A stretch of DNA of 64,000 nucleotides from Alphaproteobacteria bacterium (GCA_017546265.1 JAFYXG010000011.1:221-64220); one strand, 5' to 3'. Shown: positions 14,883-49,816, numbered from the stretch's first letter. Notes: generated by a model from the sequence alone, not told the origin. Made by a program: numbers and translations.

Positions 14883-15077
14883 ATGTAAAATTATATTCAG
14901 AAAAATCATATGTTCTACTGGACAGAATTCATAAAAATGCCGCAGATAACTGTGTATTAGTTGTTTACACAGTAAAAAAAAATTGTTATAATCAAAGAAG
15001 ATGAACACACTAACTGTGTGTTGCTATGCGTACAAAGGTTGGATTTCTGGGGACGCCCAGAATACAGGGAGAGCTTA

Positions 15078-17219
15078 ATGAAAAGTCAAAAGATTGCAGA
15101 TTCCGTCAAGAATGCAGTGGGTACGGTATTTTTACTGGCCGGGGCATTTTTTGTATGTTCTACATTATTGTCAATGCGTTCTGTTTTTGCAGATCCGATT
15201 GCACCGGTTGATTTGAATATGTTGCAGGGTGGTCAAAATGGTCGTTCAAATGCAGCCGGGCGTGCGGCGGGGCGTGCCAGTCCGCGTTCCACATCTGCAA
15301 ATCGTGCCACGGTTGCACGTACAACGGTTGCGGGTCAGAATAATGTTGGTGCGACATCGCGTGCGACAACTGGACAAAATCGTGCTGTCAGATCGCGTGC
15401 GGCGACATCACGATCAGATGCAGCGGCGGGTCGTGTGAATCAGTCTCGTAATGTTGTGTCACGTCAAAATGCGGTAACAACCCGTGCCAATGCGACTGCA
15501 AGTCGTACGGTTCGTGCCCGCACGGCAACTACGGATGCTGCCAGTAATGCTCGCGTTTCGTTACAGGGTGGTGCAATTCGCGGTTCAAAAACAACGAACA
15601 GCACATCTTATTCCTATTTGTCGGGCAAATTGTACACTGGCAACTATTCAAACATCATAGATACGACCACGGGTCTGATTTCTGCGGACGCGTTCAGTAA
15701 CTGTATGGAATCATATTACACTTGTATGGACGAAATTTGTACTGCACGTAATGCGGCCCAACGCCGTTGTGCATGTGCTGGTCGGGTCAAGGCCTTTGCC
15801 GAGGCTGAAGCCGCCCTGGAAACTGCGAACGAAGAACTGATTAAGGTGTCGGGTGAATTGGCATTGTTGATTGCGAACAAGGGCAAAGACGTATCCGAAG
15901 CGTTCAAATTGACCGATGCGGAAAAGGTTATGAACTGTGTTTCATGGCGTGATGCCAGCAAGAATGGCACCGCGACCGAGGATGAATTTGGTGCCTGGTG
16001 TGCAGAACATGGCATATATGATGGTACATGCAATCGCACAACAGCCCCATCATATTGCAAAACGTCTGGAAACGATTTTGGCTTTGATGTAAGTAATTTG
16101 GACGGCAGTGGTTCCGACATTTTGGCGTCCCTGCAGGCCTGGGCCGATGCCAAGGAACAGACATTAACAATCATCACAGATGATGCAGACAGCCTGACAT
16201 CTGCGTTTGATAATTTATCCAGTGTGGTCAGTGGGATGGCTGGTGTTGGTGGTGCATTGGCAGCATCGGATAACCTGACAGATTCATTGGCGGAAACATG
16301 GGGGTATGAATTGTTTGAATACGCACACAACAATGTTTGTGCCCGCGTATTGGATTCTTGCTTTAACGGCATATTCGAGGCTTGTGGTACCCCGCCATCT
16401 GGCACCAAGTGCAGCAATGGTGCAGCCCAGTGTCCATATAATTACAACAGTCATATAACAGTAAACAATACTGGCACCTATGAATTAAACTTTGTCAAGG
16501 CGTCCAGTGGTTACAGTGCGTCAAATTCTGCGACATGTTTTGGTTATACGACTGCATCGGGTGATCCGTATTCAAATCTGCGTGGTCCTGTTGCTGATGC
16601 ACGCCGCAGTGTTATGCAGAAATATGCATTGGATGCGAACGCAGACTGTGATGCGTACGGTGAACAATTGCGTACATCGGCCCAGAACATCGGCTATCAA
16701 AAGGTTGCTGCCCAACAGGCTTTGCAGCAGAAACGCTTGGAATTCGCTCGTGAAGAGGCGGATTCGATTCTGACGGCGGCGGTTTCAGCCGGTACAAACT
16801 TTAACGAATGTATCAGTGAACTCTATGACTGTTATGAAACCCAGTTGTCATCTAATCCGTCATGGCCAGACGCGCGCATTCGCACATATTGTTCCCAGAT
16901 TGCAAACGTACCACATTGTTACGAGGAAATGATATGTAATCCATCAACGGCCCAGTTCCGTGCCGTTATTGACAAAGCGGACAGCACAACCTGTGTGAAT
17001 ACTCAGGATTACACAACAAACACATGCCGCAACATTGTGACATTGAATGAAATTCTGAATGGTACAGGTGCCGAAGCGGCAGAACCGGTCTATGACGAAA
17101 AGGCTTCGGAATCTAAGCAGGGTACACATAATTCGGCGGCATATCGTGAACATTGCTTACAAGAAGCAGGTGTTGACGAAATCCGCAACTGGTTCGAGAA
17201 CAATCGGGTCAAGAATTAA
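15078..17219 (+). CDS. secreted Cys-rich protein, paralog 1 (713 aa), function unknown
   Basis: ORF trimmed to ATG 15078 (AGGGAGAG RBS). Hydrophobic N-terminal signal/anchor, an R/S/T/A/N low-complexity region of about 130 aa, then a Cys-rich domain. Shares the C-x6-C-M-D-x2-C-x9-C-x-C motif with 17303-19558. Confidence 0.8.
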   Translation: MKSQKIADSVKNAVGTVFLLAGAFFVCSTLLSMRSVFADPIAPVDLNMLQGGQNGRSNAAGRAAGRASPRSTSANRATVARTTVAGQNNVGATSRATTGQNRAVRSRAATSRSDAAAGRVNQSRNVVSRQNAVTTRANATASRTVRARTATTDAASNARVSLQGGAIRGSKTTNSTSYSYLSGKLYTGNYSNIIDTTTGLISADAFSNCMESYYTCMDEICTARNAAQRRCACAGRVKAFAEAEAALETANEELIKVSGELALLIANKGKDVSEAFKLTDAEKVMNCVSWRDASKNGTATEDEFGAWCAEHGIYDGTCNRTTAPSYCKTSGNDFGFDVSNLDGSGSDILASLQAWADAKEQTLTIITDDADSLTSAFDNLSSVVSGMAGVGGALAASDNLTDSLAETWGYELFEYAHNNVCARVLDSCFNGIFEACGTPPSGTKCSNGAAQCPYNYNSHITVNNTGTYELNFVKASSGYSASNSATCFGYTTASGDPYSNLRGPVADARRSVMQKYALDANADCDAYGEQLRTSAQNIGYQKVAAQQALQQKRLEFAREEADSILTAAVSAGTNFNECISELYDCYETQLSSNPSWPDARIRTYCSQIANVPHCYEEMICNPSTAQFRAVIDKADSTTCVNTQDYTTNTCRNIVTLNEILNGTGAEAAEPVYDEKASESKQGTHNSAAYREHCLQEAGVDEIRNWFENNRVKN

Positions 17220-17223
17220 AACC

Positions 17224-17249
17224 AAATCCCCCAATTGGGGGATTTTTTT
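17224..17249 (+). terminator. Rho-independent terminator
   Basis: AAATCCCCC-AATT-GGGGGATTT hairpin followed by a T run. Confidence 0.7.
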
Positions 17250-17302
17250 ATGAAAACGTTTTTATTCAATAAAAAAATATGATATAATCACAGGTAAAGA
17301 TA

Positions 17303-19558
17303 ATGAGAAAATTATTAACCTGTTTTGTATCGTTAATGGTTGCCGCACCCGCCGTTGCGGCTGATGTTGTTGCATCGCGTGCATTACCGACCGCGGCGAC
17401 AACATCTGCCACGGTTGAAAAAACGGTTGAAAAAACGGTTGAAAAATCTGATGTTGCCCGCACGGTATCCCGCACGGCGGTATCGCGTTCTGTGCCGACC
17501 GTAAATACCATTGCACAATCCGAACATGGTGGAACAGATACTACACCAGTGGTGCGTTCTGCGGTTTCACGTGTATTTACTGGTGTTTCATCTGGTGCAC
17601 CAACAAAGTCTGAATCATCATCACGTGCCGGTGCGATTTCCCGTGCGGTCAGTGCGGCAAATAATTCTGATACATCCGCCCGTGGAAATTTGGATGCGGC
17701 TGTAAACACGGTTGGTCGCAATTCTCGCGTTTCCGCGGCCAGTATTAACAGTAATCCTGCTGTACGGCGTGCGGGGTTGGTTTTACGTCCTTCCACTGCC
17801 GAGGTTGGCGGACGTGCCACCATTGGTGATTCAGATGTTCAAACGGGGTCAAATATGGATGAGGCGGTTCGTAAAATAACATCACGTTCCGCGACCGAGG
17901 CTACACGTGAATCGATTGCCGATGCAACGGGTCGCCTGGAACAGACGGCTGCACTTAATAAATCATGCCAACAGCAGTATAATGACTGTATGGATCAGTT
18001 TTGTGCGGTATTGGATGCGAATCAAAAGCGTTGTTCCTGTTCGTCTAATTTATCGCGTTATACACGTGTAGAATCCGCCGTCAAAGATGCCAACACCCAA
18101 TTGAACGAGGTTGCTCAACGCATCCGCTATGTTGGTCTGTCTGCGGATGAAATCCGTGCCATTATGAACGAGACCGAAGCAGAACAAGCCCTAAGTGGTG
18201 CGGTTGACACATCGACCAATCGCAATATGCTGGACGCCATCGAAGACCTGATACGCGACCCTGTATCCAATACTTCCTATTCTGCGGATACGTACAGTTC
18301 ATTGGATTTGGACCTGGATTTTTCATCAGATGCCACAGACCTGTTTAACCTGGACCTGTTCAATCTGGGCAATAACGGCAGTTTTTCTAACCTGCGTGGT
18401 GCGGACCTGTACAATGCGGCCAAACGCCGTTGCAACACCATTTTGAACAGGTGCAAAGATGCGGGTGCCACCGCCCAACAGATAACAGGCAATTATGACC
18501 TGGCCATTGACAAAGACTGTGCGGCATACGAACAGGGGCTGACCAAGATGAATGAAACCCTGGTGTCCAACGTTCGCAGTGCTAATTTAATGTTGCAAAA
18601 GGCACGCCTGGCTGTATTGCAGAACAAAAACCAATACGATGCCAAGGGGTGTGTGGCGGCACTGGAAAATTGTATGAAGGACGACATGGTCTGTGGTGAC
18701 GATTACTTTAAATGCGTTGACCCGACCAAGGCATACATAGACGAAAATGGCGAAGTTATATTGGGGAAAAATATTTCGAACATTACCGCATTTATGGACA
18801 GTTATAATAATGCAGCAATTAACGATGATTATCTGGATGCAATCTACAAAGGTCAATCTATTACAGAGGAAAATTGCGAGGCAGATTCATCTATCAGTGT
18901 TTCTGGTCAGGCTGCCAAGGCGGGCGGAAAAGATGGTTCTTGTATGGTGAAATATTTGTTGCAAAAAATTGGTACCGGGCAAAAAGTTACAGACGAAGGT
19001 CTTTGCCGTGCCGTTTTGGATAAGTGCCAGCGTTATACATATAACGATTCCAAATATGATCCATATAATGACATTGTTGTAAATTATATCCAGCGTGCTA
19101 TGGTAAACATCCGTGCGGCCCAGTATAATATTATATCGGACTATGCATCGACCTGTATGGTTGACATTGCCAATTGCTATAACCAACAGGTGACCCAGGT
19201 AAACTCTTGGTCATCAAATGCCAGTGTGTCCAGTATTTATAACGTAATGCGTGGTGCGTGCCGCAACGTTGCATTAACCTGTGCCTATGCGGTATTTAAC
19301 AAAGCTGCAGACAACGATCTTTGTTCCGATGATGATGATTGTATAAACGATATATCCAACATGTTCTATCAGTCATTATTGTGCCCAGACAACTCGACAT
19401 ACCAGGCCAGCAACTGTACTGATACGGGTAATGGCAAAACATGTGTAAACGAACGTTGCAAATGCAATACCGGGTACGAGGCATGGGGAACTGCGTGTTT
19501 ATTAAAGTGTGCAAGTGGTGAAGTACGTAATTCGTACGGTACATGCCAAAATGAATAA
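17303..19558 (+). CDS. secreted Cys-rich protein, paralog 2 (751 aa), function unknown
   Basis: Signal peptide MRKLLTCFVSLMVAAPAVAA, VEKT repeats, an R/S/V/A low-complexity region, the conserved Cys motif, and an EGF-like C-terminal signature. Extended -10 TGATATAAT at 17280-17288. Confidence 0.8.
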   Translation: MRKLLTCFVSLMVAAPAVAADVVASRALPTAATTSATVEKTVEKTVEKSDVARTVSRTAVSRSVPTVNTIAQSEHGGTDTTPVVRSAVSRVFTGVSSGAPTKSESSSRAGAISRAVSAANNSDTSARGNLDAAVNTVGRNSRVSAASINSNPAVRRAGLVLRPSTAEVGGRATIGDSDVQTGSNMDEAVRKITSRSATEATRESIADATGRLEQTAALNKSCQQQYNDCMDQFCAVLDANQKRCSCSSNLSRYTRVESAVKDANTQLNEVAQRIRYVGLSADEIRAIMNETEAEQALSGAVDTSTNRNMLDAIEDLIRDPVSNTSYSADTYSSLDLDLDFSSDATDLFNLDLFNLGNNGSFSNLRGADLYNAAKRRCNTILNRCKDAGATAQQITGNYDLAIDKDCAAYEQGLTKMNETLVSNVRSANLMLQKARLAVLQNKNQYDAKGCVAALENCMKDDMVCGDDYFKCVDPTKAYIDENGEVILGKNISNITAFMDSYNNAAINDDYLDAIYKGQSITEENCEADSSISVSGQAAKAGGKDGSCMVKYLLQKIGTGQKVTDEGLCRAVLDKCQRYTYNDSKYDPYNDIVVNYIQRAMVNIRAAQYNIISDYASTCMVDIANCYNQQVTQVNSWSSNASVSSIYNVMRGACRNVALTCAYAVFNKAADNDLCSDDDDCINDISNMFYQSLLCPDNSTYQASNCTDTGNGKTCVNERCKCNTGYEAWGTACLLKCASGEVRNSYGTCQNE
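17411..17446 (+). repeat. 3 perfect tandem copies of a 12-nt unit (ACGGTTGAAAAA) inside the CDS
   Basis: Encodes (T)VEK x3 and is in frame. A second near-perfect 2 x 15-nt repeat (DLFNL DLFNL) lies at 18338-18367. Confidence 0.9.
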
Positions 19559-22425: not shown

Positions 22426-23712
22426 TTATTTTGAACCGATAATTTTTGCCCACGATTTTGCGGTGGCTTGTGTTTTCTTCCACAATGTTTTTATATCAGA
22501 TTTTAATGTTTCGCCCATTTTGGTGTCGATGCTGCCGCCCAGTTCGGTTGCGAATTTTATTGCATTTTTCGCCAGGTACATCGTTATCGCCACCACCAGG
22601 ATTGTGACAAAGAATCCTGGGCTGTCGAATTCGGGCAGCCCGTTTGCATTACCAAAGTCCACAATTCCACCCAACAGTGCTGCACAGATTGCGATTACAA
22701 CGCTTAAAACGATAAAATGTAGTGCTGCGTTAATAAACCGTGATATCTGCGATTGCAGAGATTCTGCCTTAAATATTCCCATGAACCCATTGAATATGTC
22801 GCCTGCGATTCCTTTGTATGATGTTTTGCCTATTGTTTCCGCCAGTGCCGTAAATGGCAGCATAATAATCCCCAGGAACAGATCAGCAATCACACCGAAC
22901 GCAATAAAAGCGAACCGCCAACTAAGCATTATAAAGCATATAATCAACGTTACTCCACATGCAAATCCAAAGACACTGTTCCCAATTGACAGTCCAATCC
23001 ATTTCCACCCCAGTGCCACCGCCGTATAGCAAAATCCTGCTAACCGTGTAGGTACACACATAATATCTGCGGCATGTTCCGGGTTTATCAGATTTTCTGG
23101 TGAAATATGATTTGCGGCATATTCGCGAATTGCCCCGCACGTATCGGGCAGGTTTATTCCAGCAGTTTGTGTAATTGCGTTCAATATGGCATCAGAAATT
23201 GCTGTTCCAATCAGCAGGATTGGTGACATAACCATCATAAATGTCTTGGCGGGGCCAATCATCAGCACACCTGTCCACAGTGCGACCATTACACCCTTTT
23301 TAACGATTTCTTTTATTTTATCTTCGGGTTTACTTTTTCCGATAATAATTGTGTACGCTTCGAATCCAATCCAGAAAGCATACGCAATAATGATAAACAG
23401 AATCACGAACCGCACCAGCGAAGTATCCAACACATGTGCAACAAACGAAAACGCATTCATGAATGCCAGTCCGATTTTTGCTTCGACCGGGACAAAGTCA
23501 GGAACGATTTGTTGTTGTTCTGTAAAATAGTTTACGTCTCCGGCCATTTTTTCAACAAATCGTTTATGGTTGTTTTCTGTTGCCCATGTTCCGAATTCGC
23601 CTACATCCGCCATTGGCAGATTAGATTCCGTGGCAAAGGCAGGTGCAATCAAACATATTGCCAAAATTGCAACCAGAATTTTCGATAAAAATTTCTTTAA
23701 CTGCCCTATCAT
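22426..23712 (-). CDS. polytopic membrane protein, VirB6/TrbL-like paralog (4th in operon, 428 aa; family assignment tentative)
   Basis: Signal peptide, a hydrophobic N-terminal helix pair, a hydrophilic loop of about 100 aa, a cluster of TM helices and a Lys-rich tail with LW (KTLWKK). Its start overlaps the upstream stop by 4 nt. Confidence 0.7.
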   Translation of the reverse strand: MIGQLKKFLSKILVAILAICLIAPAFATESNLPMADVGEFGTWATENNHKRFVEKMAGDVNYFTEQQQIVPDFVPVEAKIGLAFMNAFSFVAHVLDTSLVRFVILFIIIAYAFWIGFEAYTIIIGKSKPEDKIKEIVKKGVMVALWTGVLMIGPAKTFMMVMSPILLIGTAISDAILNAITQTAGINLPDTCGAIREYAANHISPENLINPEHAADIMCVPTRLAGFCYTAVALGWKWIGLSIGNSVFGFACGVTLIICFIMLSWRFAFIAFGVIADLFLGIIMLPFTALAETIGKTSYKGIAGDIFNGFMGIFKAESLQSQISRFINAALHFIVLSVVIAICAALLGGIVDFGNANGLPEFDSPGFFVTILVVAITMYLAKNAIKFATELGGSIDTKMGETLKSDIKTLWKKTQATAKSWAKIIGSK

Positions 23713-25196
23713 TTCTTTTCCATAGCCTTGGTAATTTTTTCAGTGATTTGTACAGGCAGGTGCCATATTTTTTGTCCCAGGTCATGCACCCATGCACCAA
23801 AGTCAAATTGTTCACCGGTTCCGACATTTGCACCTTCGCCCGGGATTGGTAATTTGATTGTCCCGGCTGGTAACAGTTTATCTATTTTTGGGCTGATTGC
23901 GTAATAGTACAACATGAACAAACATGCCATCATCAGCATAAAGTCCCACCCATCTTTCATAAAGTCAAATGCACCTGGGTATTGTCTTTCTACTTCTGCT
24001 TTGCGTGCGGTAAAACATTGTTTGAATATGTCTTTGTTCATTTGACCGTCTGCCAACGCGACCTGTTCGCACGTTGCAAACACATTCATAACGGACAGCG
24101 TTTGTGCGTCTGGGTTTTGTACGGTCTGTCCCATCATTGGGGGCAAGATTGCACTGTATCCATCATTTGGTCCGGGCATAAATGTATCTGCGGTATATGA
24201 TACGGTTGCATATATGATAATAACCTTTAATGTAATTGCGACAATTCTGACAGCGGACGATATCAGCATACCGATAGCCTTGCTGACCAGTCCGCTGGCC
24301 TTTGCCCAGATACTTTCAAATGCGGTTGCCGCCAACAGCAGTGGCAGAAATATAATCAGGAAAACCAACTTAAATACAACGGACAGGATTTGAAAGAACA
24401 AATCAAAACCGATAATAAGGAACATTATCACCAACGCCAATCCGGCCACCCATGTTAATGCACCGCCTCCCATATCCATCCATGCAAAATTCATCATTGC
24501 AAATCCGCCTGCGGCCCCGGCCAGCATAACACTGTTGATATTTCCCATAACGCACATAAATGGTTTCATAATAGGGTTTAAAATATCTTCTGTGTTTGTT
24601 TCGCCAATTGCCCCCAGTGCATCACATTGTGCTGCGTCCCCAACGCCAGTTGCCATCATGGACAGTTCTGCCCCCGTGTACAGTACGGGCGTAATAGTTA
24701 TCTGGGAAACGGTTTTCAGTGCGGTTGTTCCTCCCATACCCAATGCTCCCATCAGGATTCCGACAACAAATATTCTGGTTGCGGGTTTCCACAATTTTTC
24801 CAGCCACGGTTTAAATTCTATTTTATGTTCCTTTGGGTCCAGTGTTGCAGTTTTTTTTGCGTGTTCAAAGAAGTATTGTATGGTGTGGATCAGGATAAAT
24901 ACACCAAATCCAATAATCATCAGTATCCACAAATTATTGACCATCAGCCCCCAGAATTTTTCCGTTGCCCCCCCAATTACCCCGAACAGGTCTGCGACAT
25001 ACCGGCACAGGAAACACCCGTTAGCGGATGCGATGTTACCATTTTCCACCCCAACTGCGGTCAGAAAGTTATTCATGCTGGTATATGTTATTGCTCCTCC
25101 GCCAATAGATGCGGAAATATACCAAATACCGATACCCAATGCGGCCAGAATCATAATAACACGAACGGCGATTAAAATCAGTTTTGCCTTTAACAT
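23709..25196 (-). CDS. polytopic membrane protein, VirB6/TrbL-like paralog (3rd in operon, 495 aa; tentative)
   Basis: N-terminal block NGCFLCRYVADLFGVIGG, a TM cluster and a Lys-rich tail. Its start overlaps the upstream stop by 1 nt. Confidence 0.7.
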   Translation of the reverse strand: MLKAKLILIAVRVIMILAALGIGIWYISASIGGGAITYTSMNNFLTAVGVENGNIASANGCFLCRYVADLFGVIGGATEKFWGLMVNNLWILMIIGFGVFILIHTIQYFFEHAKKTATLDPKEHKIEFKPWLEKLWKPATRIFVVGILMGALGMGGTTALKTVSQITITPVLYTGAELSMMATGVGDAAQCDALGAIGETNTEDILNPIMKPFMCVMGNINSVMLAGAAGGFAMMNFAWMDMGGGALTWVAGLALVIMFLIIGFDLFFQILSVVFKLVFLIIFLPLLLAATAFESIWAKASGLVSKAIGMLISSAVRIVAITLKVIIIYATVSYTADTFMPGPNDGYSAILPPMMGQTVQNPDAQTLSVMNVFATCEQVALADGQMNKDIFKQCFTARKAEVERQYPGAFDFMKDGWDFMLMMACLFMLYYYAISPKIDKLLPAGTIKLPIPGEGANVGTGEQFDFGAWVHDLGQKIWHLPVQITEKITKAMEKK

Positions 25197-26386
25197 TATT
25201 TACCGTCCTTTTTATCGCCACCTGAAATAATTGTTTTTCCCACTTTGACTGCTGCATCGAACGCATCCTTGGCCAAGGTTAAAACATCATTCGCCAATTG
25301 TTCACCCATATCCTTTTTCTCGGCAACATCAAACGCGGCCAGGAACATTTTAGAAATCTGAGGTATTTGTCCCTGGATAAAGTTCAAAACATATACCAGA
25401 ACAATTGCACTCATCAGTGTCATTGACTGCAAGTTTTCTGTGTTTAAATCACCTTCGAATATTTGACCAGTGGTTATAGCGGTCATTAAATCTGCGGCCG
25501 ATGCATCTGGTGCGGAAAAGAACTTTGCGATGATTACCATGATAATGGTATAAGTCAGAACGACCGACCCCAGTGTTACAATTGCGGTAATCGGGTTTTT
25601 AAATTGGTTCACACCAACACCGGATCCCAGTTTTCCAATCCAGGCGGGTACGTGTTCTGCCCCCTTAAATGCGAATGCAACCAGCGATATCGGAAAGAAG
25701 AACGCAAAGAAAGCCATCGCCACAATTGCATCCAGGAAATAGCAACAATATCTGAAAAATAACTTAAAGAAACCCCATGCCAGATACAAACCAATCATAA
25801 ACAAAATAATATGTTTAATCAGTGTTCCAACTCCCAGCAGTGCACGCCATGAAAATGCCTTGTCCATCATTGCGATGCCCAGTTCTATATATGCCTGGAA
25901 TTGAGTGATGGTTGTCTTCATCAACAATATAATTTTATCACGCAGTTCTGGTCTGTAGAAACCGTCATCGCTCATTTCTTCTGGTTGGTATGTGACTTTT
26001 TCTTCGACCGCGTCTGTATCCATTTTTGTAATGGCCTGGGTGTATGTCAGTGTTATTTGTGCTACGGGCTCGAATGTAACAGTTGTTATAACGCGTGGCA
26101 ACATAACACCCATACCCATCAGCGCGATTGCAATAATTCCGTTTATAAAGACTTTTTGTATAGATTTTTCATACAGTGTATCTGCAAAGTTATTTTGAAA
26201 GTTTTTCCAAATTGCATTTACCATAAATACAGCGAACAGAAACACAAACAGTATTACGCATATTTGGCTGAAGTATCCGTAAATGTTTGCCGCCGCCATA
26301 GACACGATTTGAAACAGTCTGTCAAACACCCCACAGCCCCAACACTGCACAGTATTTTCCACCAAAGATGATGTCCACTGGTTCAT
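25196..26386 (-). CDS. polytopic membrane protein, VirB6/TrbL-like paralog (2nd in operon, 396 aa; tentative)
   Basis: N-terminal block CWGCGVFDRLFQIVSMAA, a TM cluster and a Lys-rich tail. ATGA overlap with the upstream gene. Confidence 0.7.
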   Translation of the reverse strand: MNQWTSSLVENTVQCWGCGVFDRLFQIVSMAAANIYGYFSQICVILFVFLFAVFMVNAIWKNFQNNFADTLYEKSIQKVFINGIIAIALMGMGVMLPRVITTVTFEPVAQITLTYTQAITKMDTDAVEEKVTYQPEEMSDDGFYRPELRDKIILLMKTTITQFQAYIELGIAMMDKAFSWRALLGVGTLIKHIILFMIGLYLAWGFFKLFFRYCCYFLDAIVAMAFFAFFFPISLVAFAFKGAEHVPAWIGKLGSGVGVNQFKNPITAIVTLGSVVLTYTIIMVIIAKFFSAPDASAADLMTAITTGQIFEGDLNTENLQSMTLMSAIVLVYVLNFIQGQIPQISKMFLAAFDVAEKKDMGEQLANDVLTLAKDAFDAAVKVGKTIISGGDKKDGK

Positions 26387-27651
26387 TTCTTTTTAATCCA
26401 TCCTGCGGCGGAGCCAATGGCACTGCCTGTTTTTTTAATACTTCCCCAGATTGTACCGGCATCGGCCTTAACACTTTTATACAGTCCGTCCATACCGCCA
26501 CCAATGTATTTGTTCAACTGTTGCTGGGTTTTATCGTATATTTTGAACATTAAATAGAAAGTCAATATTGCGGACATCCATGTGACAGAATGTTGTCCAA
26601 ATCCCGAGGCAGAATTTGCGATTGTTGGAATATTGCTGGCGGCACTCCCCCCTGCGGCAACAACGAACACTGACGAATTCCAGTTAAACAATGCACGTAT
26701 CACGGCCAGATTTATACACAGCATAAATGCACACGCAATCATTGTCACGACCAGTTGTTGCAGTGCCTTGGTAATGCCACTGAATGCGGGCCAAACATCA
26801 AACCATTTATCGCTGGATTTCACAACGTATGTCATTACATGGAATGGATACAGTATCAACTGCATGCCAAAGTTAAATATTCCCTGAATAATCAGCAGTG
26901 CCATAAACAAATTGCTGGCCACAAATGTAAAGATAAGCAGTATTCCCGTAATAATATTTAAAAAGTTTTCACCCCCATGCGGAATCAACGTCATCAGTCC
27001 CTTTAGTCCCTGTGTCAGTTGTGCGAAACCGTACTTTACAATTTGGTTGTTTGCGTTTGATAAATCGGACACCGGCTGGACCAGGAATTCGCACGATTCC
27101 TGTGAAATCCAATCGTGTTGCAAAATGTCAGCGGGGCATTCGACTTGTTTTATATTCTGTGGGTCTTGTATGATTTGTTCGGTGATAATTCCAGTATAAA
27201 TTGACCCCAGTTCCAGAAACGGATTTACCAACCACTGTGTTAAAAATACAGGCTTCATCTGTAATAAAAATACTGCGGCGATAATTGCACGTGTTCCAGA
27301 CTTTAATGTGTTTTCTATGATTTGATAACCTGTAATTTTACCTTCTGCAATTTCGCCGCCTCCTGATATTCCCAAAAAAGACAACCATGTTTTTGGAAAA
27401 TACATTTTAACCAGTGTGATGGTAATAGTGATACCCAAAAATATCCAAACAAAAGCATAGATAAAACCATCGCCATTTCCGACAAAAAAATCATACATAC
27501 TTGTAGCGACCAGCATCATCGCGTCCAGTACCATTGGTACAAACGGTGCCAGGTTTAACGAATCTATGATATTACCTGCGTACGCGGCACCTGGCATGAC
27601 AAACATCACACCCAAAAAAAGCCCGAAAATCAGTTTTTTCAGCAGGTACAT
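26383..27651 (-). CDS. polytopic membrane protein, VirB6/TrbL-like paralog (1st in operon, 422 aa; tentative)
   Basis: Signal peptide MYLLKKLIFGLFLGVMFVMPGAAYA and the same architecture as the others. Tail GTIWGSIKK...WIKKK. Confidence 0.7.
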   Translation of the reverse strand: MYLLKKLIFGLFLGVMFVMPGAAYAGNIIDSLNLAPFVPMVLDAMMLVATSMYDFFVGNGDGFIYAFVWIFLGITITITLVKMYFPKTWLSFLGISGGGEIAEGKITGYQIIENTLKSGTRAIIAAVFLLQMKPVFLTQWLVNPFLELGSIYTGIITEQIIQDPQNIKQVECPADILQHDWISQESCEFLVQPVSDLSNANNQIVKYGFAQLTQGLKGLMTLIPHGGENFLNIITGILLIFTFVASNLFMALLIIQGIFNFGMQLILYPFHVMTYVVKSSDKWFDVWPAFSGITKALQQLVVTMIACAFMLCINLAVIRALFNWNSSVFVVAAGGSAASNIPTIANSASGFGQHSVTWMSAILTFYLMFKIYDKTQQQLNKYIGGGMDGLYKSVKADAGTIWGSIKKTGSAIGSAAGWIKKK

Positions 27652-27680
27652 TCTCTGTATATTTATTTTATGTTTTCAAT

Positions 27681-27710
27681 TATATCACATTTTGTGCAAA
27701 ATATGATATA
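27681..27710. promoter_or_regulatory. 30-bp quasi-palindrome made of two overlapping divergent extended -10 promoters
   Basis: TATATCACATTTTG-TG-CAAAATATGATATA, with one mismatch between the arms. The top strand carries TGATATACT (27704-27712). The bottom strand carries TGATATAAT (reverse complement of 27680-27688). Confidence 0.5.
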
Positions 27711-27720
27711 CTTAAAAGCA

Positions 27721-29010
27721 ATGAACAGATTAAAAAAATTTTGGATAGTCTTTTTATCGTTCTTACCCTGGGCGGCAGGTGCGGGTGTTCCATTACTGAT
27801 TGGTGGTGTTGCGGGTATTGGTGCATTGGCAGGTTTTTCAATATACCGCACGGCTGTGCCTGTATCGCCAACGGATGCGTATCAGTTTTTTTCCAGTTGT
27901 TGGACCTGTCAAATGTTTTCAGACATTATGGCGACCATGTCTGGGATATTGCCTCGAATTTATCATGCACTGGGGGAAACGATTGTTCCATTTACAATTA
28001 TGCTGACCGCCATATGGTGGACATGGAAAATAGTTGGCGGTCTGTTTAATGGCAAAGTAGATGCCCCCTGGACATTGGCCAGTACATTTGTAAATCACCT
28101 CAGTCGTTTGGCGATTGTTTGTGTTTTTTTATTGGCACCATTACCTCGTTTAATATCAGATATTGCGATTTCTCCTATTTTTAACATAGGTTTATCGTTG
28201 AACCGTGCGGTTGTTCATGATGATGGTTTTGATACGTGTGTTATATCAACGGCACTGGCCGACCCGACATCGGTCGATTCGGTTGCGGCGGATTCTGGTG
28301 CGTTTTCACCTACGTTGCGTCATAACCTGGCATGTGAATTGTCTGGTGTGCACCAGATGACGGGTATGGGCATGACGGTTGGGTGGACTATGTTGAACAT
28401 GGCATTTAATGCAGACTATATGCACAAAATATTATGGGATGTTCCGATTTTTCCGAACGTTATTTTATTTTTTGCTGGGTTGCTGGTTTTAGTTTTGTTT
28501 TTTTCGGCATTATTACCAATACCTATATATTTTCTGGAAATATTTATAACATTGGCACTGGATATGGTGATGTTGCCATTTATGTTGTTGGCCTGGTTGT
28601 TCAAAGACTGGAAAATATCTTTGTCTGGGGCTGGCAAAACGATTCGAAGTATTGTGGACGATGTGATAAATGGGACATTGGGTTTGGCGATGACTGGGAT
28701 ATTTGTATCGTTTGCGATAATGTTTCTGGATGCAGTGTTCGGTGATTGGAATGGTGTATCTGCCTTATCGGTTGCATTGACGCAAAACGATTCGAAATTT
28801 TTGATGGATGCCTTGATGATGCGTAATGACGGGCTGATAATGATAATATTTATGGGTATCTTTTTGACTATGTTCATGATAATGATACCTGCACTGGCCA
28901 AGACTTTATTCAACGTTCAGATTTCAACAGACTTCTATGACACCACGAAAAAGAACATAGATATTGTATGGCAAAACCTGAAAAAGTGGTACTCAGCGAT
29001 AAAAAAATAA
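27721..29010 (+). CDS. polytopic membrane protein, VirB6/TrbL-like paralog (divergent, 429 aa; tentative)
   Basis: ORF 27670-29010 trimmed to ATG 27721 (MNRLKKFWIVFLSF). Block SSCWTCQMFSDIMATMSG, a TM cluster and the tail DIVWQNLKKWYSAIKK. Confidence 0.7.
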   Translation: MNRLKKFWIVFLSFLPWAAGAGVPLLIGGVAGIGALAGFSIYRTAVPVSPTDAYQFFSSCWTCQMFSDIMATMSGILPRIYHALGETIVPFTIMLTAIWWTWKIVGGLFNGKVDAPWTLASTFVNHLSRLAIVCVFLLAPLPRLISDIAISPIFNIGLSLNRAVVHDDGFDTCVISTALADPTSVDSVAADSGAFSPTLRHNLACELSGVHQMTGMGMTVGWTMLNMAFNADYMHKILWDVPIFPNVILFFAGLLVLVLFFSALLPIPIYFLEIFITLALDMVMLPFMLLAWLFKDWKISLSGAGKTIRSIVDDVINGTLGLAMTGIFVSFAIMFLDAVFGDWNGVSALSVALTQNDSKFLMDALMMRNDGLIMIIFMGIFLTMFMIMIPALAKTLFNVQISTDFYDTTKKNIDIVWQNLKKWYSAIKK

Positions 29011-29078
29011 AAAATCAAGTGGTTTATTTTACCTGACCCCCTTTTTTATACATACCGAATCTGATATAATTCATACCA

Positions 29079-29588
29079 ATGACAAAGTTTCCGATTCTTT
29101 ATTGGCCACGCAGAACGACTGGAGATAATGAATACCAGTTGGCTCGCAAAGTAATAAACAAACAGACCGGTGTAATGCCCGATGTTTTAATTGAAGACAT
29201 CAACATTGCGGACGTTTTAACTGAAAATCCGAATGCGGTGATATATTATCCTGTATTTTGTGGATCTACTGGTTGGTGGGGTGAATTATTGGGGGGCAAC
29301 GCGGTTGTCAGTGACAAAGTGATAATATCCCCAGAATGTCAGTTAATGGTGATTGAATCGAACAAGACGGCATGTTCCAGTGGTACGACTCAGTTGTTGG
29401 CGGCAGAAATCTATCCTGCCAGTGGTTTTTTCAAAAAGATGAATTCTGGTATTGCGACTGTTTCTGACATGTTGGCGACCGATGCGGGTACGATATTGGC
29501 ACTGTTTTCTGGTCGGAACCAGACTCAGTTTATAAATATCTTGGAATCGACTGGGAATTCATATCTTGGTTGTATTGGTCGGTACTAG
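29079..29588 (+). CDS. hypothetical protein (169 aa, no signal peptide)
   Basis: ORF. Extended -10 TGATATAAT (29062-29070) ends 8 nt before the ATG, so the mRNA is probably leaderless. Confidence 0.5.
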   Translation: MTKFPILYWPRRTTGDNEYQLARKVINKQTGVMPDVLIEDINIADVLTENPNAVIYYPVFCGSTGWWGELLGGNAVVSDKVIISPECQLMVIESNKTACSSGTTQLLAAEIYPASGFFKKMNSGIATVSDMLATDAGTILALFSGRNQTQFINILESTGNSYLGCIGRY

Positions 29589-30662: not shown

Positions 30663-30734
30663 TCTGTATTCCGTATTTTCCACTTGCGTGCGATTCGTGA
30701 TTTGTTCTATGATTACATCAGGAAGGAAAGGAAA

Positions 30735-32111
30735 ATGCGTCATTTATCATTAAGTATATTGGCTGTACTGCTGATAATTCCTGGTGTTGCGAGTGCTCGC
30801 ATGCCTGTGGTGAACATTTCATCTGGCAGTGTGTCTGCACGTTCTGCGTTTGGCGAAGGTGAAACGTTGTCTCAGAAACGCGATGTTGCAACTGTTCCGG
30901 TCCAGAAATCGGCCCCGACACGTACTCGTTCGGTTGTTGCTCGTTCTGTGTCAAAACAGGTGTCTGCACCTGCGGGGCGTTCTGTTGATATTGGTGAAAC
31001 ATTGGCTGCGACTGATGTGTTGGTTCCGCATCGTCCCAGTGGTGATTTGTGGGCGAAAAGTGATAACATCTTGCGTATGCCAATGGCCAGCGAGTTTTCT
31101 GTTATTCGTTCCGATAGTATTTTACCCGAAGAAAGTTTGGATAATGCATTTTCGGCTGTGTCTACCCCTGTGGCGGAAACGGTTCGTGTTGCGTCCAGTG
31201 TGCCACAAAAAACCGATGTTTCCGATACGGTTTCGGATTTAGATAATCAGATTGCACGTTTGGTTGAAATGCAAAAACGTATTGCGGATAGTGAACGCAA
31301 TGTTTCATCGCGTGTAATTGCTGCACCAATTGCCACGATGGATACTGCCCCTGTGGCGGAGCCTGTTCGCGTTGCATCAAATCGTGTTGCGGAACGGCCA
31401 GCAGCCCCGGTGGTTGAGCATAATAATGAACCAGATGTGCCAGTTGTTGCAAATAATGATTTTTCATTGCGGCGTATGGTTGTGCCTATGTCGGACGATG
31501 TTGTTGTTCGCAGTGTGGAAAAGAATACGTCTCCACGTATTGCGGCGGTGCGGGATGATATGACAAAAATGAGTCCGTCTGAACTTCGCCGTGCGTTTCG
31601 CAAAACCTTTTTGTCTGAAAATAAGCATCTTTCTACATATTCTGTTGATGATCGTTTTGATGTTGCCAGTGATATGTCTGCGTCCATCGAAGGGTTTACA
31701 TCTGCCCGGGATTTGTCCGAGCAGGGTGGTATTCGTCCGTTGGAAATCAAGATAAAGTTCCACAACGAAGATTCTGCACTATCGCGTGAGAATTATAATT
31801 TATTGACCGAATATGCAGGCATAGTGGTCAGCAAACCAACGCGCGCAATTCAGGTGGCGATACCCCAGCATATGACCACCAGCAAAGACGGTCGTAAATT
31901 GGCGGCTCGCCGTTTGGCGATTGTGGAACAGGCACTGACGGACAATGGTGTATCCCAGCAGCGAATTGTTCCTGTATTGTCTAACCGGGAAGAGCAGGGC
32001 TTTGTTCTGCGTATTATTTCTGGGGATCAGTATGAAACTCTGACCCAACAGCAGCATGATATATTTGGTGATACGATAAATAAAAAGACCTATAAAAGCA
32101 TGTCATGGTAG
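30735..32111 (+). CDS. secreted protein with low-complexity/repeat N-region and OmpA/MotB-like C-terminal domain (tentative)
   Basis: ORF trimmed to ATG 30735 (MRHLSLSILAVLLIIPGVASA). Repeat PVAE.VRVAS occurs twice. C-terminus ...LAARRLAIVEQALTDNGVSQQRI... is OmpA_C-like. Confidence 0.65.
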   Translation: MRHLSLSILAVLLIIPGVASARMPVVNISSGSVSARSAFGEGETLSQKRDVATVPVQKSAPTRTRSVVARSVSKQVSAPAGRSVDIGETLAATDVLVPHRPSGDLWAKSDNILRMPMASEFSVIRSDSILPEESLDNAFSAVSTPVAETVRVASSVPQKTDVSDTVSDLDNQIARLVEMQKRIADSERNVSSRVIAAPIATMDTAPVAEPVRVASNRVAERPAAPVVEHNNEPDVPVVANNDFSLRRMVVPMSDDVVVRSVEKNTSPRIAAVRDDMTKMSPSELRRAFRKTFLSENKHLSTYSVDDRFDVASDMSASIEGFTSARDLSEQGGIRPLEIKIKFHNEDSALSRENYNLLTEYAGIVVSKPTRAIQVAIPQHMTTSKDGRKLAARRLAIVEQALTDNGVSQQRIVPVLSNREEQGFVLRIISGDQYETLTQQQHDIFGDTINKKTYKSMSW

Positions 32112-45762: not shown

Positions 45763-46098
45763 ATGGCAAAGCAAGATTTGGTAAATGAACGCGTAAATAT
45801 TGCACAACAAGAATTGGCAAAACGTGCACAAAGATTGGATCGTTTGGTTGCGTCTCGCCGTGGCAAAATGAATGCGGTCGGTTTTGACCGTGGTGTAGAA
45901 TTGGTCCGTGAAATGATAGAAAATCAATCGAAACTGTATGATGTTGTTGTTTTTGATATGCCAAAAACCGCATTGGAACAGCATCGTAATTTAATGTTGG
46001 CCACGGGCACCATGAATCAGTCCGTCCAGGAAGGAATCAAGACCGCCACCGATGCGATTGACGCAATGTTGCATACATTGGAACAAATGAGTCGTTAA
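45763..46098 (+). CDS. small helical hypothetical protein (111 aa), module A3
   Basis: ORF 45700-46098 trimmed to ATG 45763 (AAAGGTGAAAG RBS). TGATATAAT at 45723-45731. Confidence 0.6.
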   Translation: MAKQDLVNERVNIAQQELAKRAQRLDRLVASRRGKMNAVGFDRGVELVREMIENQSKLYDVVVFDMPKTALEQHRNLMLATGTMNQSVQEGIKTATDAIDAMLHTLEQMSR

Positions 46099-46105
46099 AA
46101 TTCTG

Positions 46106-46126
46106 CCGTCCGTCTGGGCGGTTTTT
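46106..46126 (+). terminator. Rho-independent terminator
   Basis: CCGTCC-GTCT-GGGCGG hairpin (one G-U pair) followed by a T5 run. Confidence 0.55.
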
Positions 46127-46178
46127 GTAGCTATGTAAGATTTGACATGCTGTTGCATAATAAGAACAAGGAAGTATT

Positions 46179-46400
46179 ATGAAAGGTGCGATAATTTTTT
46201 GTATTCTTGGGATTCTTTATTGTACGCTTAATTCATGTGCGATAAATTCGCGTGCGGACAGCATAATGCATCAGATGTATGCCGGTCAATACACATTAAT
46301 GTCAGTGATGTTTTTGTGTTGTATATTTATCGTGCTGGCAGTGATGCAAAACAAAAAATCCAGTGAAAAATCCGATACAGAAAAACAGATCAGTAAATAA
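46179..46400 (+). CDS. small membrane protein / possible lipoprotein (73 aa)
   Basis: AAGGAAG RBS and two hydrophobic segments. Possible lipobox LNSC. Confidence 0.5.
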   Translation: MKGAIIFCILGILYCTLNSCAINSRADSIMHQMYAGQYTLMSVMFLCCIFIVLAVMQNKKSSEKSDTEKQISK

Positions 46401-46428
46401 AAAATGCCCTGATGGGCATTATTTATTT
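46400..46428 (+). terminator. Rho-independent terminator at the core/island boundary
   Basis: ATGCCC-TGAT-GGGCAT hairpin (46403-46418) followed by TATTTATTTT. Confidence 0.6.
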
Positions 46429-46626
46429 TGGTTGACGATAGTTAACGAATTTCGAACCACTTACTATAATGATATTATGAACATCGCAACGATAGTGAAA
46501 CAACTAATCAATAATAATATTATGTGTTTTCAAACAAATATACACATCGCATAAAAAATATACTGTCAAAAAACAAATTATACATTATTATGGTAAAGAT
46601 ACATAAAACCATAAAGGTGCATAATA

Positions 46627-47487
46627 ATGACCAAGTTAGGCACATCATACGAAAAACTTGTTCAGGACATATTTCAAACCATCCTTAACACTGAATATGG
46701 ACAAAGAAACATTAAAGTTCAGAGAAATGTAAAACTTATTGGCAAATCAGGAATAGAACGTGAATTTGACATTTATTGGGAATATGAACAAGCAGGTTTC
46801 ATTCACAAAACTGTAATAGAGTGCAAAGACTATTCTAACCCAATATCAATCGATAGAATAGATGCTTTTATTGGAAAATTACAAGATTTTCCAAATATGT
46901 TTGGCGTTTTTGCCACAAAAGTAGGTTATCAATCTGGTGCAATGGCATATGCCGAGAATAACAACATAGACACAATAATAATTAGAGAACCAGATATAAC
47001 AAAAGACTTTACTGACAAATCTGGAATCCCTTTAATAAAAATAATCCAGCTAAATATAGAAATGCATTTGCCACCAATAATAACAAAAGTCAATGCGGTT
47101 TTAGATAAAGAATATATTAAAGAAAATTCTATTACAAATATACCCCCAAATGAATACGTTAGTTTTCCCGACAAAATCTGGATAGAAAACACAGAAACAG
47201 GAACAAAAAATACCCTGTATGACATTATACACGATATAGAAACTAATCCAGAACCAACATACGGACACCATGAAAAACAAATAAGATTTAGTAATACATT
47301 TATAACGTATGAAAACGGAACGCGTTTCAAAATAAAACAACTTGATATAGCATATGAAACTCATGCGCCAACAGTATCCACAATAAACATAGATGCACAA
47401 AATATATTCACTGCCATAATAGAGTACTTATCTAATGGTAATAAAAAAGCGTTCTTATATAATGGTACAATTAAGAACCTTACATAA
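46627..47487 (+). CDS. Mrr-like (PD-(D/E)xK) restriction-endonuclease-domain protein with unknown C-terminal domain
   Basis: Block GIEREFDIYWEY...VIECKDYSNPISIDRIDAFIGKL...GVFATKVGYQSGA fits the Mrr_cat pattern as recalled. About 150 further aa are of unknown type. Confidence 0.65.
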   Translation: MTKLGTSYEKLVQDIFQTILNTEYGQRNIKVQRNVKLIGKSGIEREFDIYWEYEQAGFIHKTVIECKDYSNPISIDRIDAFIGKLQDFPNMFGVFATKVGYQSGAMAYAENNNIDTIIIREPDITKDFTDKSGIPLIKIIQLNIEMHLPPIITKVNAVLDKEYIKENSITNIPPNEYVSFPDKIWIENTETGTKNTLYDIIHDIETNPEPTYGHHEKQIRFSNTFITYENGTRFKIKQLDIAYETHAPTVSTINIDAQNIFTAIIEYLSNGNKKAFLYNGTIKNLT

Positions 47488-49796: not shown

Positions 49797-49816
49797 ACAC
49801 TTACAAGGGGACAGAT

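What the first reader, a model, noticed from the sequence alone, without database searches (positions are those of the whole stretch)
22426..29588. Five VirB6/TrbL-like membrane paralogs with no other T4SS gene in view
Four polytopic membrane proteins of 396-495 aa lie head to tail with overlapping stop/start codons (4, 1 and 4 nt). A fifth is transcribed divergently.

All five share one architecture:
- A hydrophobic or amphipathic N-terminal helix pair. Three carry a C-x2-C block: CWGCGVFDRLF, GCFLCRYVADLF, SCWTCQMFSDIM.
- A hydrophilic loop of about 100 aa, often with Cys residues.
- A cluster of TM helices.
- A Lys-rich tail with a conserved Trp: IWGSIKK, TLWKK, IVWQNLKKW, KIWHLP.

The N-terminal pattern and topology resemble Agrobacterium VirB6. 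Proliferated tandem virB6 genes are a known hallmark of the Rickettsiales vir-homolog (rvh) T4SS. Here no virB3/virB4 precedes them and no other vir gene lies nearby. They are also much smaller than rickettsial VirB6 proteins. The family assignment is from memory only, so this could be a distinct membrane-protein family.
Basis: partly seen in the sequence, partly recalled or inferred. Interest (0 to 1): 0.6.

Follow-up and report, generated by a model that had tools for sequence, protein, structure and literature searches.

The report
Five hidden VirB6 secretion-channel paralogs
A tiny-genome gut bacterium (Candidatus Enterousia) carries five very divergent, unannotated copies of VirB6, the inner-membrane core protein of type IV secretion machines. 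The other parts of the machine lie scattered elsewhere in its chromosome, much as in Rickettsia.

Summary
Four translationally coupled genes on the minus strand (22426-27651) and one divergent gene (27721/27670-29010) encode five polytopic membrane proteins that are 17-23% identical to each other.

- **Direct searches miss them.** Pfam, NCBIfam and a six-frame PF04610 scan of the genome give no hit.
- **Remote homology is clear.** Profiles of each paralog's orthologs match a profile of PF04610-positive tandem VirB6 arrays from other small-genome Alphaproteobacteria at 98-99.8% hhalign probability; a reversed control gives about 1%.
- **The bridge is anchored.** That bridging profile hits TrwI/VirB6 of plasmid R388 (E 7e-7). 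The best PDB fold matches of an AlphaFold model of paralog C are also TrwI, though weakly.
- **A machine exists.** The genome encodes virB3-virB4, virB8-virB9-virB10, a second virB8, virB11 and virD4 at separate loci. No VirB5 was found.
- **The array is conserved.** The block has the same layout in 75 of 80 related species genomes.

They are therefore very probably VirB6 subunits of a scattered, rvh-like chromosomal T4SS in order Rs-D84. I class this as a new, very divergent member of a known kind. Why there are five copies is untested; one idea is a mixed pentamer.

The parts
26383..27651 (-). Paralog D (422 aa), first gene of the four-gene operon. It is VirB6-like and lacks the CxxC motif, having LAPFVPMVLDAM in its place.
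   Evidence: ORF. The ortholog profile A2 matches the PF04610-positive VirB6 profile A5 at 98.4%, E 5e-15, over 306 columns. More than 836 homologs, all named 'hypothetical', come from Enterousia or Alphaproteobacteria MAGs.
25196..26386 (-). Paralog C (396 aa), VirB6-like, with the N-terminal CWGC motif. Its start overlaps the stop of D by 4 nt.
   Evidence: ORF. The C+E profile A3 matches A5 at 99.8%, E 3e-29, over 356 columns, with the CWxC and P-x7-F motifs in register. The AF2 model has pLDDT 65.7. The top Foldseek PDB hits are TrwI/VirB6 chains (8rtd_L, E 0.043, prob 0.91).
23709..25196 (-). Paralog B (495 aa), VirB6-like, with the CFLC motif. It overlaps C by 1 nt.
   Evidence: ORF. hhalign against the PF04610-positive profile gives 99.1%, E 1.6e-18. 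Its HMM hits PF04610-positive ORFs down to E 1.9e-7.
22426..23712 (-). Paralog A (428 aa), the last gene of the operon and the most divergent. It has a signal-peptide-like N-terminus (…APAFA/TES) and no CxxC. It overlaps B by 4 nt.
   Evidence: ORF. The ortholog profile A7 matches A5 at 98.3%, E 1.1e-14, over 276 columns. The script run gave 93.9%.
27652..27720 (.). A 69-nt divergent control region between D and E, with back-to-back extended -10 elements. TGATATACT at 27704-27712 serves E. TGATATAAT on the minus strand at 27680-27688 serves the D-C-B-A operon.
   Evidence: Sequence read. The consensus scan lists a TG-extended site at 27684-27712. The promoter function is inferred, not shown.
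27721..29010 (+). Paralog E (429 aa from 27721; the ORF opens at 27670 = 446 aa). It is divergently transcribed, carries the CWTC motif, and is the copy closest to VirB6 proteins of other lineages.
   Evidence: ORF. The E-family HMM hits 22 of 30 PF04610-positive tandem VirB6 ORFs and 9 in-array neighbours, and nothing else among 133 ORFs. The best scores are 72 bits (E 3e-22) and 62 bits (3e-19). hhalign gives 99.3%.
29079..29588 (+). ORF F (169 aa), a soluble and very conserved neighbour downstream of E. It is not a VirB6 paralog. Its function and any link to the T4SS are unknown.
   Evidence: F is present downstream of E in 76 of 80 related loci. The top 120 homologs are 74-95% identical. 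There are no Pfam, NCBIfam or PHROG hits. The AF2 model has pLDDT 65.6 and no meaningful PDB fold match.

Best explanation
The five genes encode very divergent VirB6-family proteins. VirB6 is the polytopic inner-membrane subunit that forms the base of the T4SS stalk and channel.

They belong to a chromosomal, scattered, rvh-like P-type T4SS of a Candidatus Enterousia (order Rs-D84) gut alphaproteobacterium.

**Shown here**
- Homology to PF04610-positive VirB6 arrays.
- The presence of the other T4SS genes elsewhere in the genome.
- Conservation of all five genes across the genus.

**Inferred**
- D-C-B-A are co-translated from one promoter, and E is transcribed from the back-to-back divergent promoter.
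- The products insert in the inner membrane and, together with VirB3/VirB4, VirB8 and VirB10, build the stalk base through which VirD4-recruited substrates pass to another cell.

**Open**
- Whether the five copies co-assemble or are used alternatively.
For: **1. Profile-profile homology.**
- D family (A2) against 30 PF04610-positive tandem ORFs (A5): 98.4%, E 5e-15.
- C+E (A3) against A5: 99.8%, E 3e-29, with the CWxC and P-x7-F motifs in register.
- A (A7) against A5: 98.3%, E 1.1e-14.
- B: 99.1%.
- Reversed-template control: 0.7-1.5%.

**2. Specificity of the HMM hits.** Hits of the Enterousia families fall only on ORFs inside tandem VirB6 arrays. For E these are 22 PF04610-positive ORFs and 9 in-array neighbours among 133 ORFs.

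**3. Genome-wide scan.** The C+E profile over 151 class genomes hits only the own genus and six genomes, all PF04610-positive, at the same ORFs.

**4. Large-library search.** In 1.84 billion representatives there are 629 hits at E<=1e-3. PF04610 is the top Pfam family among 56 distant hits, in 25 of them.

**5. Anchoring of the bridge.** The bridge profile A5 hits TrwI/VirB6 of R388 at E 6.8e-7 over nearly its full length. A script-built profile of the same 30 ORFs matches canonical TrbL ORFs at 97%.

**6. Fold.** For the AF2 model of C, the three best Foldseek PDB matches, and eight of the best 18, are chains of R388 stalk (TrwJ/VirB5-TrwI/VirB6) entries. Their sequence 7o3v_F was confirmed as TrwI.

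**7. Rest of the machine in the same genome.**
- virB3-virB4.
- virB8-virB9-virB10.
- A second virB8.
- virB11.
- virD4.
- No other VirB6 candidate: PF04610 finds nothing in this genome or in a 100%-complete genome of the same genus.

**8. Conservation.** The layout F- E- D+ C+ B+ A+ is kept in 75 of 80 species-level genomes. Orthologs are 44-95% identical, against 17-23% between paralogs.
Against: - No direct Pfam or NCBIfam hit for any of the five.
- No direct hhalign match to canonical IncP-type TrbL (0.1-0.2%).
- No direct PDB sequence hit for A2 or A3. Membership therefore rests on a transitive bridge.
- The Foldseek E-values are weak (0.04-0.9; TM 0.26-0.42) and the model has only moderate confidence (pLDDT 65.7).
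- The array is not adjacent to any T4SS gene.
- These genomes are syntenic throughout, so a conserved layout is weak evidence for functional linkage.
- No VirB2 pilin was detected.
Confidence: 0.82

Rival explanations
1. The five proteins are VirB6-fold paralogs that work apart from the T4SS, for example as a self-standing heteromeric membrane conduit or as anchors for other envelope proteins. On this reading the scattered vir genes serve another purpose.
For: - The array has no T4SS neighbour in the window.
- It is uncoupled from virB3-virB4, unlike G137, where VirB4 directly precedes three VirB6 genes.
- Relatives of the family are fused to M23 peptidase, VgrG3-C or RHS domains, which shows functional plasticity.
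Against: - The genome has a T4SS set that otherwise lacks any VirB6.
- VirB6 is a core subunit of P-type systems (PMC9259494).
- The other components are also scattered, so separation is the rule in this genome rather than a sign of independence.
Confidence: 0.1
2. The five proteins form a distinct family of polytopic membrane proteins (a transporter or similar). Their resemblance to VirB6 would then be a by-product of hydrophobic composition.
For: - No Pfam, NCBIfam or PDB sequence hit for the proteins themselves.
- Some paralog pairs show no profile similarity: B-D and C-D at about 0-1%.
- Foldseek E-values are above 0.01.
Against: - The reversed-profile control falls to about 1%, against 94-99.8% forward.
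- Alignments are collinear over 276-356 columns, with the CWxC and P-x7-F motifs in register.
- HMM hits fall only on VirB6-array ORFs.
- PF04610 is the top family among distant hits.
Confidence: 0.03
3. The array is a decaying remnant of a conjugative element. On this reading the paralogs are redundant copies drifting towards loss.
For: - The proteins diverge strongly from canonical VirB6.
- Every T4SS component scores below NCBIfam trusted cut-offs.
Against: - All five ORFs are intact and kept in the same order in 75 of 80 species genomes.
- Dozens of columns are invariant within each ortholog family.
- The genomes are about 0.9 Mb and streamlined, without pseudogene build-up (PMC12306168).
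- GC content in the region matches its neighbours.
Confidence: 0.03

Closest known systems
RvhB6 paralog arrays of the Rickettsiales vir homolog (rvh) T4SS (three to five rvhB6 copies; four tandem virB6 in Wolbachia)
   Same: - Multiple (here five) anciently diverged VirB6 paralogs, mostly in tandem.
- T4SS genes scattered over the chromosome.
- virB8 duplicated and no VirB5.
- A reduced genome.

Sources for the rvh features: PMC10732058 and bioRxiv 10.1101/2025.08.29.673095. Results here.
   Different: - The host lineage is Rs-D84 (Candidatus Enterousia) from the animal gut, not Rickettsiales (PMC12306168).
- The array is detached from virB3-virB4, and one copy is divergently transcribed.
- The proteins are compact (396-495 aa), without the large flanking insertions of RvhB6.
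- VirB4 and VirB9 are single-copy.
- Pfam PF04610 does not detect any copy.
TrwI (plasmid R388) / VirB6 (Agrobacterium), Pfam PF04610 TrbL/VirB6
   Same: - An all-helical polytopic inner-membrane protein.
- The best PDB fold matches of the paralog C model are TrwI chains.
- The bridging profile hits TrwI at E 7e-7.
- A conserved Pro-x7-Phe in the loop after the central TM helices, matching the P-x7-F-x2-T-x6-W motif listed in PMC10732058.
   Different: - One gene per system in R388 and Agrobacterium, forming a homopentamer (PMC9259494); here there are five different genes.
- No direct sequence or HMM match.
- An N-terminal CWxC motif is present in three copies and is shared with the alphaproteobacterial tandem-array clade.
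   Same: - They are the nearest detectable relatives: E-family HMM up to 72 bits, C+E profile E down to 7e-18.
- They share the CWxCxxF motif.
- They carry 3-5 copies per genome.
   Different: - Those proteins are mostly 450-1500 aa.
- Some are fused to Peptidase_M23, VgrG3-C or RHS domains.
- Many still reach PF04610.

Membership tests
TrbL/VirB6 (Pfam PF04610) | Match to the PF04610 HMM at or above the gathering score | tested here: not met
   There is no PF04610 hit at E<=1 for any of the five proteins. The six-frame scan of the genome and of a complete same-genus genome also find none.
TrbL/VirB6 (Pfam PF04610) | Demonstrable homology to proteins that do match PF04610 | tested here: met
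   hhalign against a profile of 30 PF04610-positive ORFs gives A 98.3%, B 99.1%, C+E 99.8% and D 98.4%. The reversed control gives about 1%. PF04610 is present in 25 of 56 distant hits.
TrbL/VirB6 (Pfam PF04610) | Polytopic inner-membrane protein: N-terminal hydrophobic helices, a hydrophilic loop, then a cluster of TM helices | tested here: met
   Hydrophobic segments can be read directly in the translations. The AF2 model of C is all-helical with eight long helices. No dedicated topology predictor was available.
TrbL/VirB6 (Pfam PF04610) | Conserved loop motif P-x7-F-x2-T-x6-W (as listed in PMC10732058) | tested here: inconclusive
   Pro is invariant in all five. P-x7-F is present in B, C and E, while D has Val and A has Ile at that position. 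A Trp follows within 2-9 residues in B-E but not in A. The Thr is not kept. The motif aligns in register with the VirB6 profile.
TrbL/VirB6 (Pfam PF04610) | Fold like solved VirB6 (TrwI, PDB 7O3V/8RT9) | tested here: inconclusive
   TrwI chains are the top three Foldseek hits, but at E 0.04-0.16 and TM 0.26-0.41, from a model with pLDDT 65.7. Only paralog C was modelled.
TrbL/VirB6 (Pfam PF04610) | Co-occurrence with the other core T4SS genes | tested here: met
   VirB3 and VirB4; VirB8, VirB9 and VirB10; VirB11; VirD4. All are in the same genome but at other loci.
rvh-type T4SS (Rickettsiales vir homolog) | Scattered vir gene clusters and three to five VirB6 copies | tested here: met
   There are at least six separate loci on contigs C4, C5, C12 and C18, and five VirB6 paralogs.
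rvh-type T4SS (Rickettsiales vir homolog) | Duplication of VirB4, VirB8 and VirB9 | tested here: not met
   VirB8 has two copies. VirB4 and VirB9 are single in this genome and in a 100%-complete same-genus genome.
rvh-type T4SS (Rickettsiales vir homolog) | No VirB5 minor pilin | tested here: met
   PF07996 gives no match above the cut-off in either genome. A very divergent VirB5 cannot be excluded.
rvh-type T4SS (Rickettsiales vir homolog) | VirB6 core flanked by large insertions (RvhB6 of 600 aa or more) | tested here: not met
   The proteins are 396-495 aa, and the profile alignment covers most of their length.
rvh-type T4SS (Rickettsiales vir homolog) | Host belongs to the order Rickettsiales | tested here: not met
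   The nearest genomes are titled Candidatus Enterousia, which GTDB places in order Rs-D84 (PMC12306168). No phylogeny was run here.

The most novel reading that the evidence does not exclude
The five paralogs may form an obligate mixed pentamer, one subunit of each kind. It would occupy the five-fold VirB6 position at the base of the T4SS stalk.

This would turn a symmetric hub into an asymmetric one with five different faces, for example towards VirB4/VirB8, a pilin or different substrates.

**In its favour**
- VirB6 is a pentamer in R388 (PMC9259494).
- Exactly five mutually divergent copies are kept in 75 of 80 species.
- Four are translationally coupled, and the fifth shares the same 69-nt control region.
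- Five copies recur in other array-bearing lineages: G023 and G078 each have five in tandem, and G021 has five PF04610-positive ORFs on two contigs.

**Against it**
- Other lineages keep three or four copies (PMC10732058).
- Nothing on stoichiometry was tested here.
Probability: 0.2. Interest if true: 0.8.

Novelty: new member of a known kind. Interest (0 to 1): 0.5.

Why it matters
**Lifestyle of the lineage.** Enterousia/Rs-D84 are widespread gut bacteria with genomes of about 0.9 Mb. They have no TCA cycle or respiration and few recognisable transporters (PMC12306168), so they presumably live off other cells. A conserved T4SS with five VirB6 paralogs is a concrete candidate for the contact machinery, yet standard annotation calls all five 'hypothetical'. 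No paper in the searchable library links Rs-D84 with type IV secretion.

**The VirB6 multiplication puzzle.** The purpose of VirB6 multiplication in rvh systems is an acknowledged open question (bioRxiv 10.1101/2025.08.29.673095). A compact version without the large RvhB6 extensions, sampled in hundreds of genomes, is good material for co-evolution and structure-prediction tests of whether the copies co-assemble.

**Annotation.** The ortholog profiles could extend VirB6 detection to a clade that PF04610 misses.

Tried and rejected
**Searches that found nothing**
- Direct Pfam, NCBIfam and PHROG scans of the five proteins gave only noise.
- Profiles A2 and A3 against PDB sequences gave no VirB6 hit.
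- hhalign of each family against 14 canonical TrbL ORFs gave 0.1-0.2%. A first version of that set contained wrong-strand ORFs and was rebuilt.
- A VirB2 search (PF04956) gave nothing above the cut-off.

**Candidates that did not hold up**
- The 103-aa ORF upstream of virB3 looks spurious: it is Cys/Phe-rich and has no pilin features.
- The 810-aa ORF at C5:110.9 kb, which I considered as a second VirB4, is GyrB.
- The 544-aa T2SSE ATPase at C5:103.6 kb belongs with a PilC/GspF-like gene, not with the T4SS.

**ORF F**
- The homolog search, AF2 model and Foldseek gave no function.

**Tool problems**
- The Python machine was lost. No phylogeny, dN/dS or TM prediction could be run after that.

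**Correction to my notebook**
- Entry 3 says the E-family HMM hit 27 of 30 PF04610-positive ORFs. A recount gives 22 of 30.
Full report
**Observation.** The window holds four head-to-tail ORFs on the minus strand. They are D 26383-27651 (422 aa), C 25196-26386 (396 aa), B 23709-25196 (495 aa) and A 22426-23712 (428 aa), with start/stop overlaps of 4, 1 and 4 nt. A divergent ORF, E, lies at 27670-29010.
- The five proteins are 17-23% identical.
- Pairwise, only C-E is significant (blastp 5e-10, phmmer 1e-10).
- Profiles built from about 80 orthologs of each paralog connect the set: C-E 97%, A-D 91%, B-C 83%, A-B and A-E 78%. B-D and C-D stay unlinked.
- E probably starts at 27721 (MNRLKKFW). 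This gives 429 aa, the common ortholog length, and places an extended -10 element (TGATATACT, 27704-27712) 8 nt upstream. A mirror TGATATAAT on the other strand (27680-27688) faces the D-C-B-A operon. Promoter function is inferred only; the consensus scan finds no more sites than chance.
- The finding's end coordinate includes ORF F (29079-29588, 169 aa), which is soluble and not a paralog.

**Organism and conservation.** Homologs of D number more than 836. All are unnamed or 'hypothetical' and come from Alphaproteobacteria MAGs.
- A scan of species-representative genomes returned 80 loci titled Candidatus Enterousia or uncultured Alphaproteobacteria from animal and human guts. One is a complete 958,618-bp chromosome.
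- The window's own assembly is 958 kb in 21 contigs and about 80% complete.
- Enterousia belongs to order Rs-D84, a lineage with reduced genomes that lacks the TCA cycle and respiration (PMC12306168).
- The layout F- E- D+ C+ B+ A+ recurs in 75 of the 80 loci.
- Orthologs are 44-95% identical, so the five copies were already distinct before the genus radiated.
- Because these small genomes are syntenic overall, a conserved order is weak evidence for functional linkage, particularly for F.

**Direct family tests fail.** Pfam and NCBIfam give nothing for any of the five.
- A six-frame PF04610 scan finds nothing in this genome or in a 100%-complete genome of the same genus.
- Profiles of D and of C+E do not hit any PDB sequence.

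**Remote homology is nevertheless clear.** A PF04610 scan of 151 class-level genomes found 34 positives. Among them are about a dozen small genomes (1.1-2.5 Mb) with tandem arrays of weakly scoring VirB6 ORFs. I fetched 14 such loci.
- *HMM hits.* HMMs of the Enterousia families hit exactly those ORFs.
  - The E family reaches 72 bits (E 3e-22) and 62 bits (3e-19) with collinear alignments.
  - At E<=0.01 it hits 22 of the 30 PF04610-positive ORFs plus 9 ORFs directly adjacent in the same arrays, and nothing else among 133 ORFs.
  - C reaches 1.6e-10, B 1.7e-8, A 6e-6 and D 4e-4.
- *Profile-profile comparison* against the 30 PF04610-positive ORFs.
  - The script run gave A 93.9%, B 99.1%, C 98.2%, D 97.0% and E 99.3%.
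  - The reversed-template control gave 0.7-1.5%.
  - The scan's own hhalign tool, on independently built alignments, gave D 98.4% (E 5e-15, 306 columns), C+E 99.8% (E 3e-29, 356 columns) and A 98.3% (E 1.1e-14, 276 columns).
- *Motif register.* In these alignments the N-terminal CWxCxxF block and the Pro-x7-Phe loop motif are in register. Both are majority features of the bridging clade.
- *Anchoring of the bridge.* A script-built profile of the same 30 ORFs matches canonical TrbL ORFs at 97%. The alignment A5 hits TrwI/VirB6 of R388 at E 6.8e-7 over nearly its whole length, as the only significant PDB hit.
- *What stays unlinked.* The Enterousia families do not match canonical IncP-type TrbL directly (0.1-0.2%).

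**Independent checks.**
- The C+E profile run over the same 151 genomes hits only the own genus and six other genomes. All six are PF04610-positive, and the hits fall at the array ORFs.
- Against 1.84 billion representative proteins it finds 629 hits at E<=1e-3.
- Of 56 distant hits, each at least 400 aa long, 25 carry PF04610, making it the commonest family. Ten carry Peptidase_M23.
- Named members are 'hypothetical' or 'M23 family metallopeptidase' from Alphaproteobacteria MAGs.
- An AlphaFold2 model of C is all-helical with moderate confidence (pLDDT 65.7, pTM 0.61).
- The three best Foldseek PDB matches, and eight of the best 18, are chains of R388 stalk (TrwJ/VirB5-TrwI/VirB6) entries (E 0.04-2, TM up to 0.42). 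Their sequence 7o3v_F was confirmed as TrwI. This agrees with the homology result but would not be significant alone.

**The rest of the machine.** The same genome encodes the following.
- virB3 (105 aa) and virB4 (809 aa) at C5:94.2-96.9 kb.
- virB8-virB9-virB10 at C4:75.7-80.4 kb, about 11.5 kb beyond the window.
- A second virB8 at C18:27.2 kb.
- virB11 (331 aa) on C12.
- virD4 (750 aa) at C5:57.1-59.4 kb.

All of these score below NCBIfam trusted cut-offs. The whole system is therefore divergent, which fits VirB6 escaping Pfam. VirB4 and VirB9 are single-copy here and in the complete congener. No VirB5 and no VirB2 were detected. In one array-bearing relative (G137), VirB4 directly precedes three VirB6 genes. 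In another (G023), five tandem copies stand alone as they do here.

**Interpretation.** The five genes are best read as VirB6 subunits of a scattered, rvh-like chromosomal T4SS.
- In R388, VirB6 is a pentamer of long, mostly hydrophobic helices at the inner-membrane base of the stalk, below VirB5 (PMC9259494).
- rvh systems are defined by scattered clusters, three to five rvhB6 copies, duplicated B4/B8/B9 and no VirB5 (PMC10732058). The reason for the multiplications is called a mystery (bioRxiv 10.1101/2025.08.29.673095).
- The Enterousia system shares the scatter, the five copies, a duplicated VirB8 and the missing VirB5.
- It differs in host order, in single VirB4 and VirB9, in compact VirB6 proteins, and in an array detached from virB3/virB4.
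- I file it as a very divergent new member of the VirB6 family and an rvh-like system, not as an rvh member in the strict sense.
- Function with the T4SS, the substrate (protein or DNA) and the target cell are inferences.

**Rivals.**
- A T4SS-independent role for VirB6-fold proteins is possible (about 10%). It is disfavoured because the T4SS would otherwise lack its VirB6.
- An unrelated membrane family (about 3%) is contradicted by the controls and by motif register.
- A decaying remnant (about 3%) is contradicted by intact conservation in a streamlined genome.

**Boldest reading.** Five distinct copies might fill the five positions of the VirB6 pentamer. Translational coupling and strict retention of all five fit this reading. 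Copy numbers of three and four in other lineages do not (PMC10732058). It was not testable here.

**Earlier notes of this scan** report the same array in other Enterousia genomes with the same reading. I treat them as leads, not as evidence. One earlier bold reading, a conduit with no VirB4, is contradicted by the VirB4 found here.

**Limits.**
- The Python machine was lost, so no trees, dN/dS or topology prediction could be run.
- Only paralog C was modelled.

Noticed in passing
L133:6459-10121 (- strand; genome G132) and 10 of 56 proteins in alignment A4: In other uncultured Alphaproteobacteria, VirB6-like proteins are fused to a Peptidase_M23 domain. For example, a 1220-aa ORF carries PF04610 (29.5 bits) and M23 (105 bits). 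Others carry VgrG3-like C-terminal, RHS or SseC-like domains. This suggests VirB6 subunits that carry their own cell-wall-cutting or effector module.
   Followed up: partly
window 29079-29588: A soluble 169-aa protein (F) follows E in 76 of 80 related genomes. It is much more conserved (74-95% identity) than the VirB6 paralogs. It has no family or fold match.
   Followed up: yes
window 27652-27720: The divergent D and E genes are separated by only 69 nt. The gap holds two back-to-back extended -10 elements, TGATATAAT and TGATATACT. The E element lies 8 nt before the likely start codon, implying a very short leader.
   Followed up: partly
window 15018-19558: Two adjacent genes encode large secreted Cys-rich proteins (733 and 751 aa) with no family match. 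They lie just upstream of the dnaQ-like and uvrD-like genes that flank the array. They could be surface or secreted factors.
   Followed up: no
window 46000-54000: This stretch is markedly AT-rich (GC 33-37%, against about 43% elsewhere). GC skew drops to about zero and AT skew is strongly positive, which suggests an island of different origin.
   Followed up: no
L002:14933-15568 (genome contig C5:96.9-97.6 kb): A 211-aa protein with a signal-peptide-like N-terminus and no family match lies immediately after virB4. Its position makes it a candidate for an unrecognised periplasmic T4SS part.
   Followed up: no
L003:1585-4292 (genome contig C5:103.6-106.3 kb): A PilB/GspE-like ATPase (544 aa) and a PilC/GspF-like platform protein (356 aa) lie side by side. 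The genome therefore also keeps part of a type II secretion or type IV pilus-like system.
   Followed up: partly
window 30684-32111: A 475-aa protein with a signal peptide, a low-complexity region and a weak OmpA-like C-terminal domain (PF00691, 16 bits, below the cut-off).
   Followed up: no
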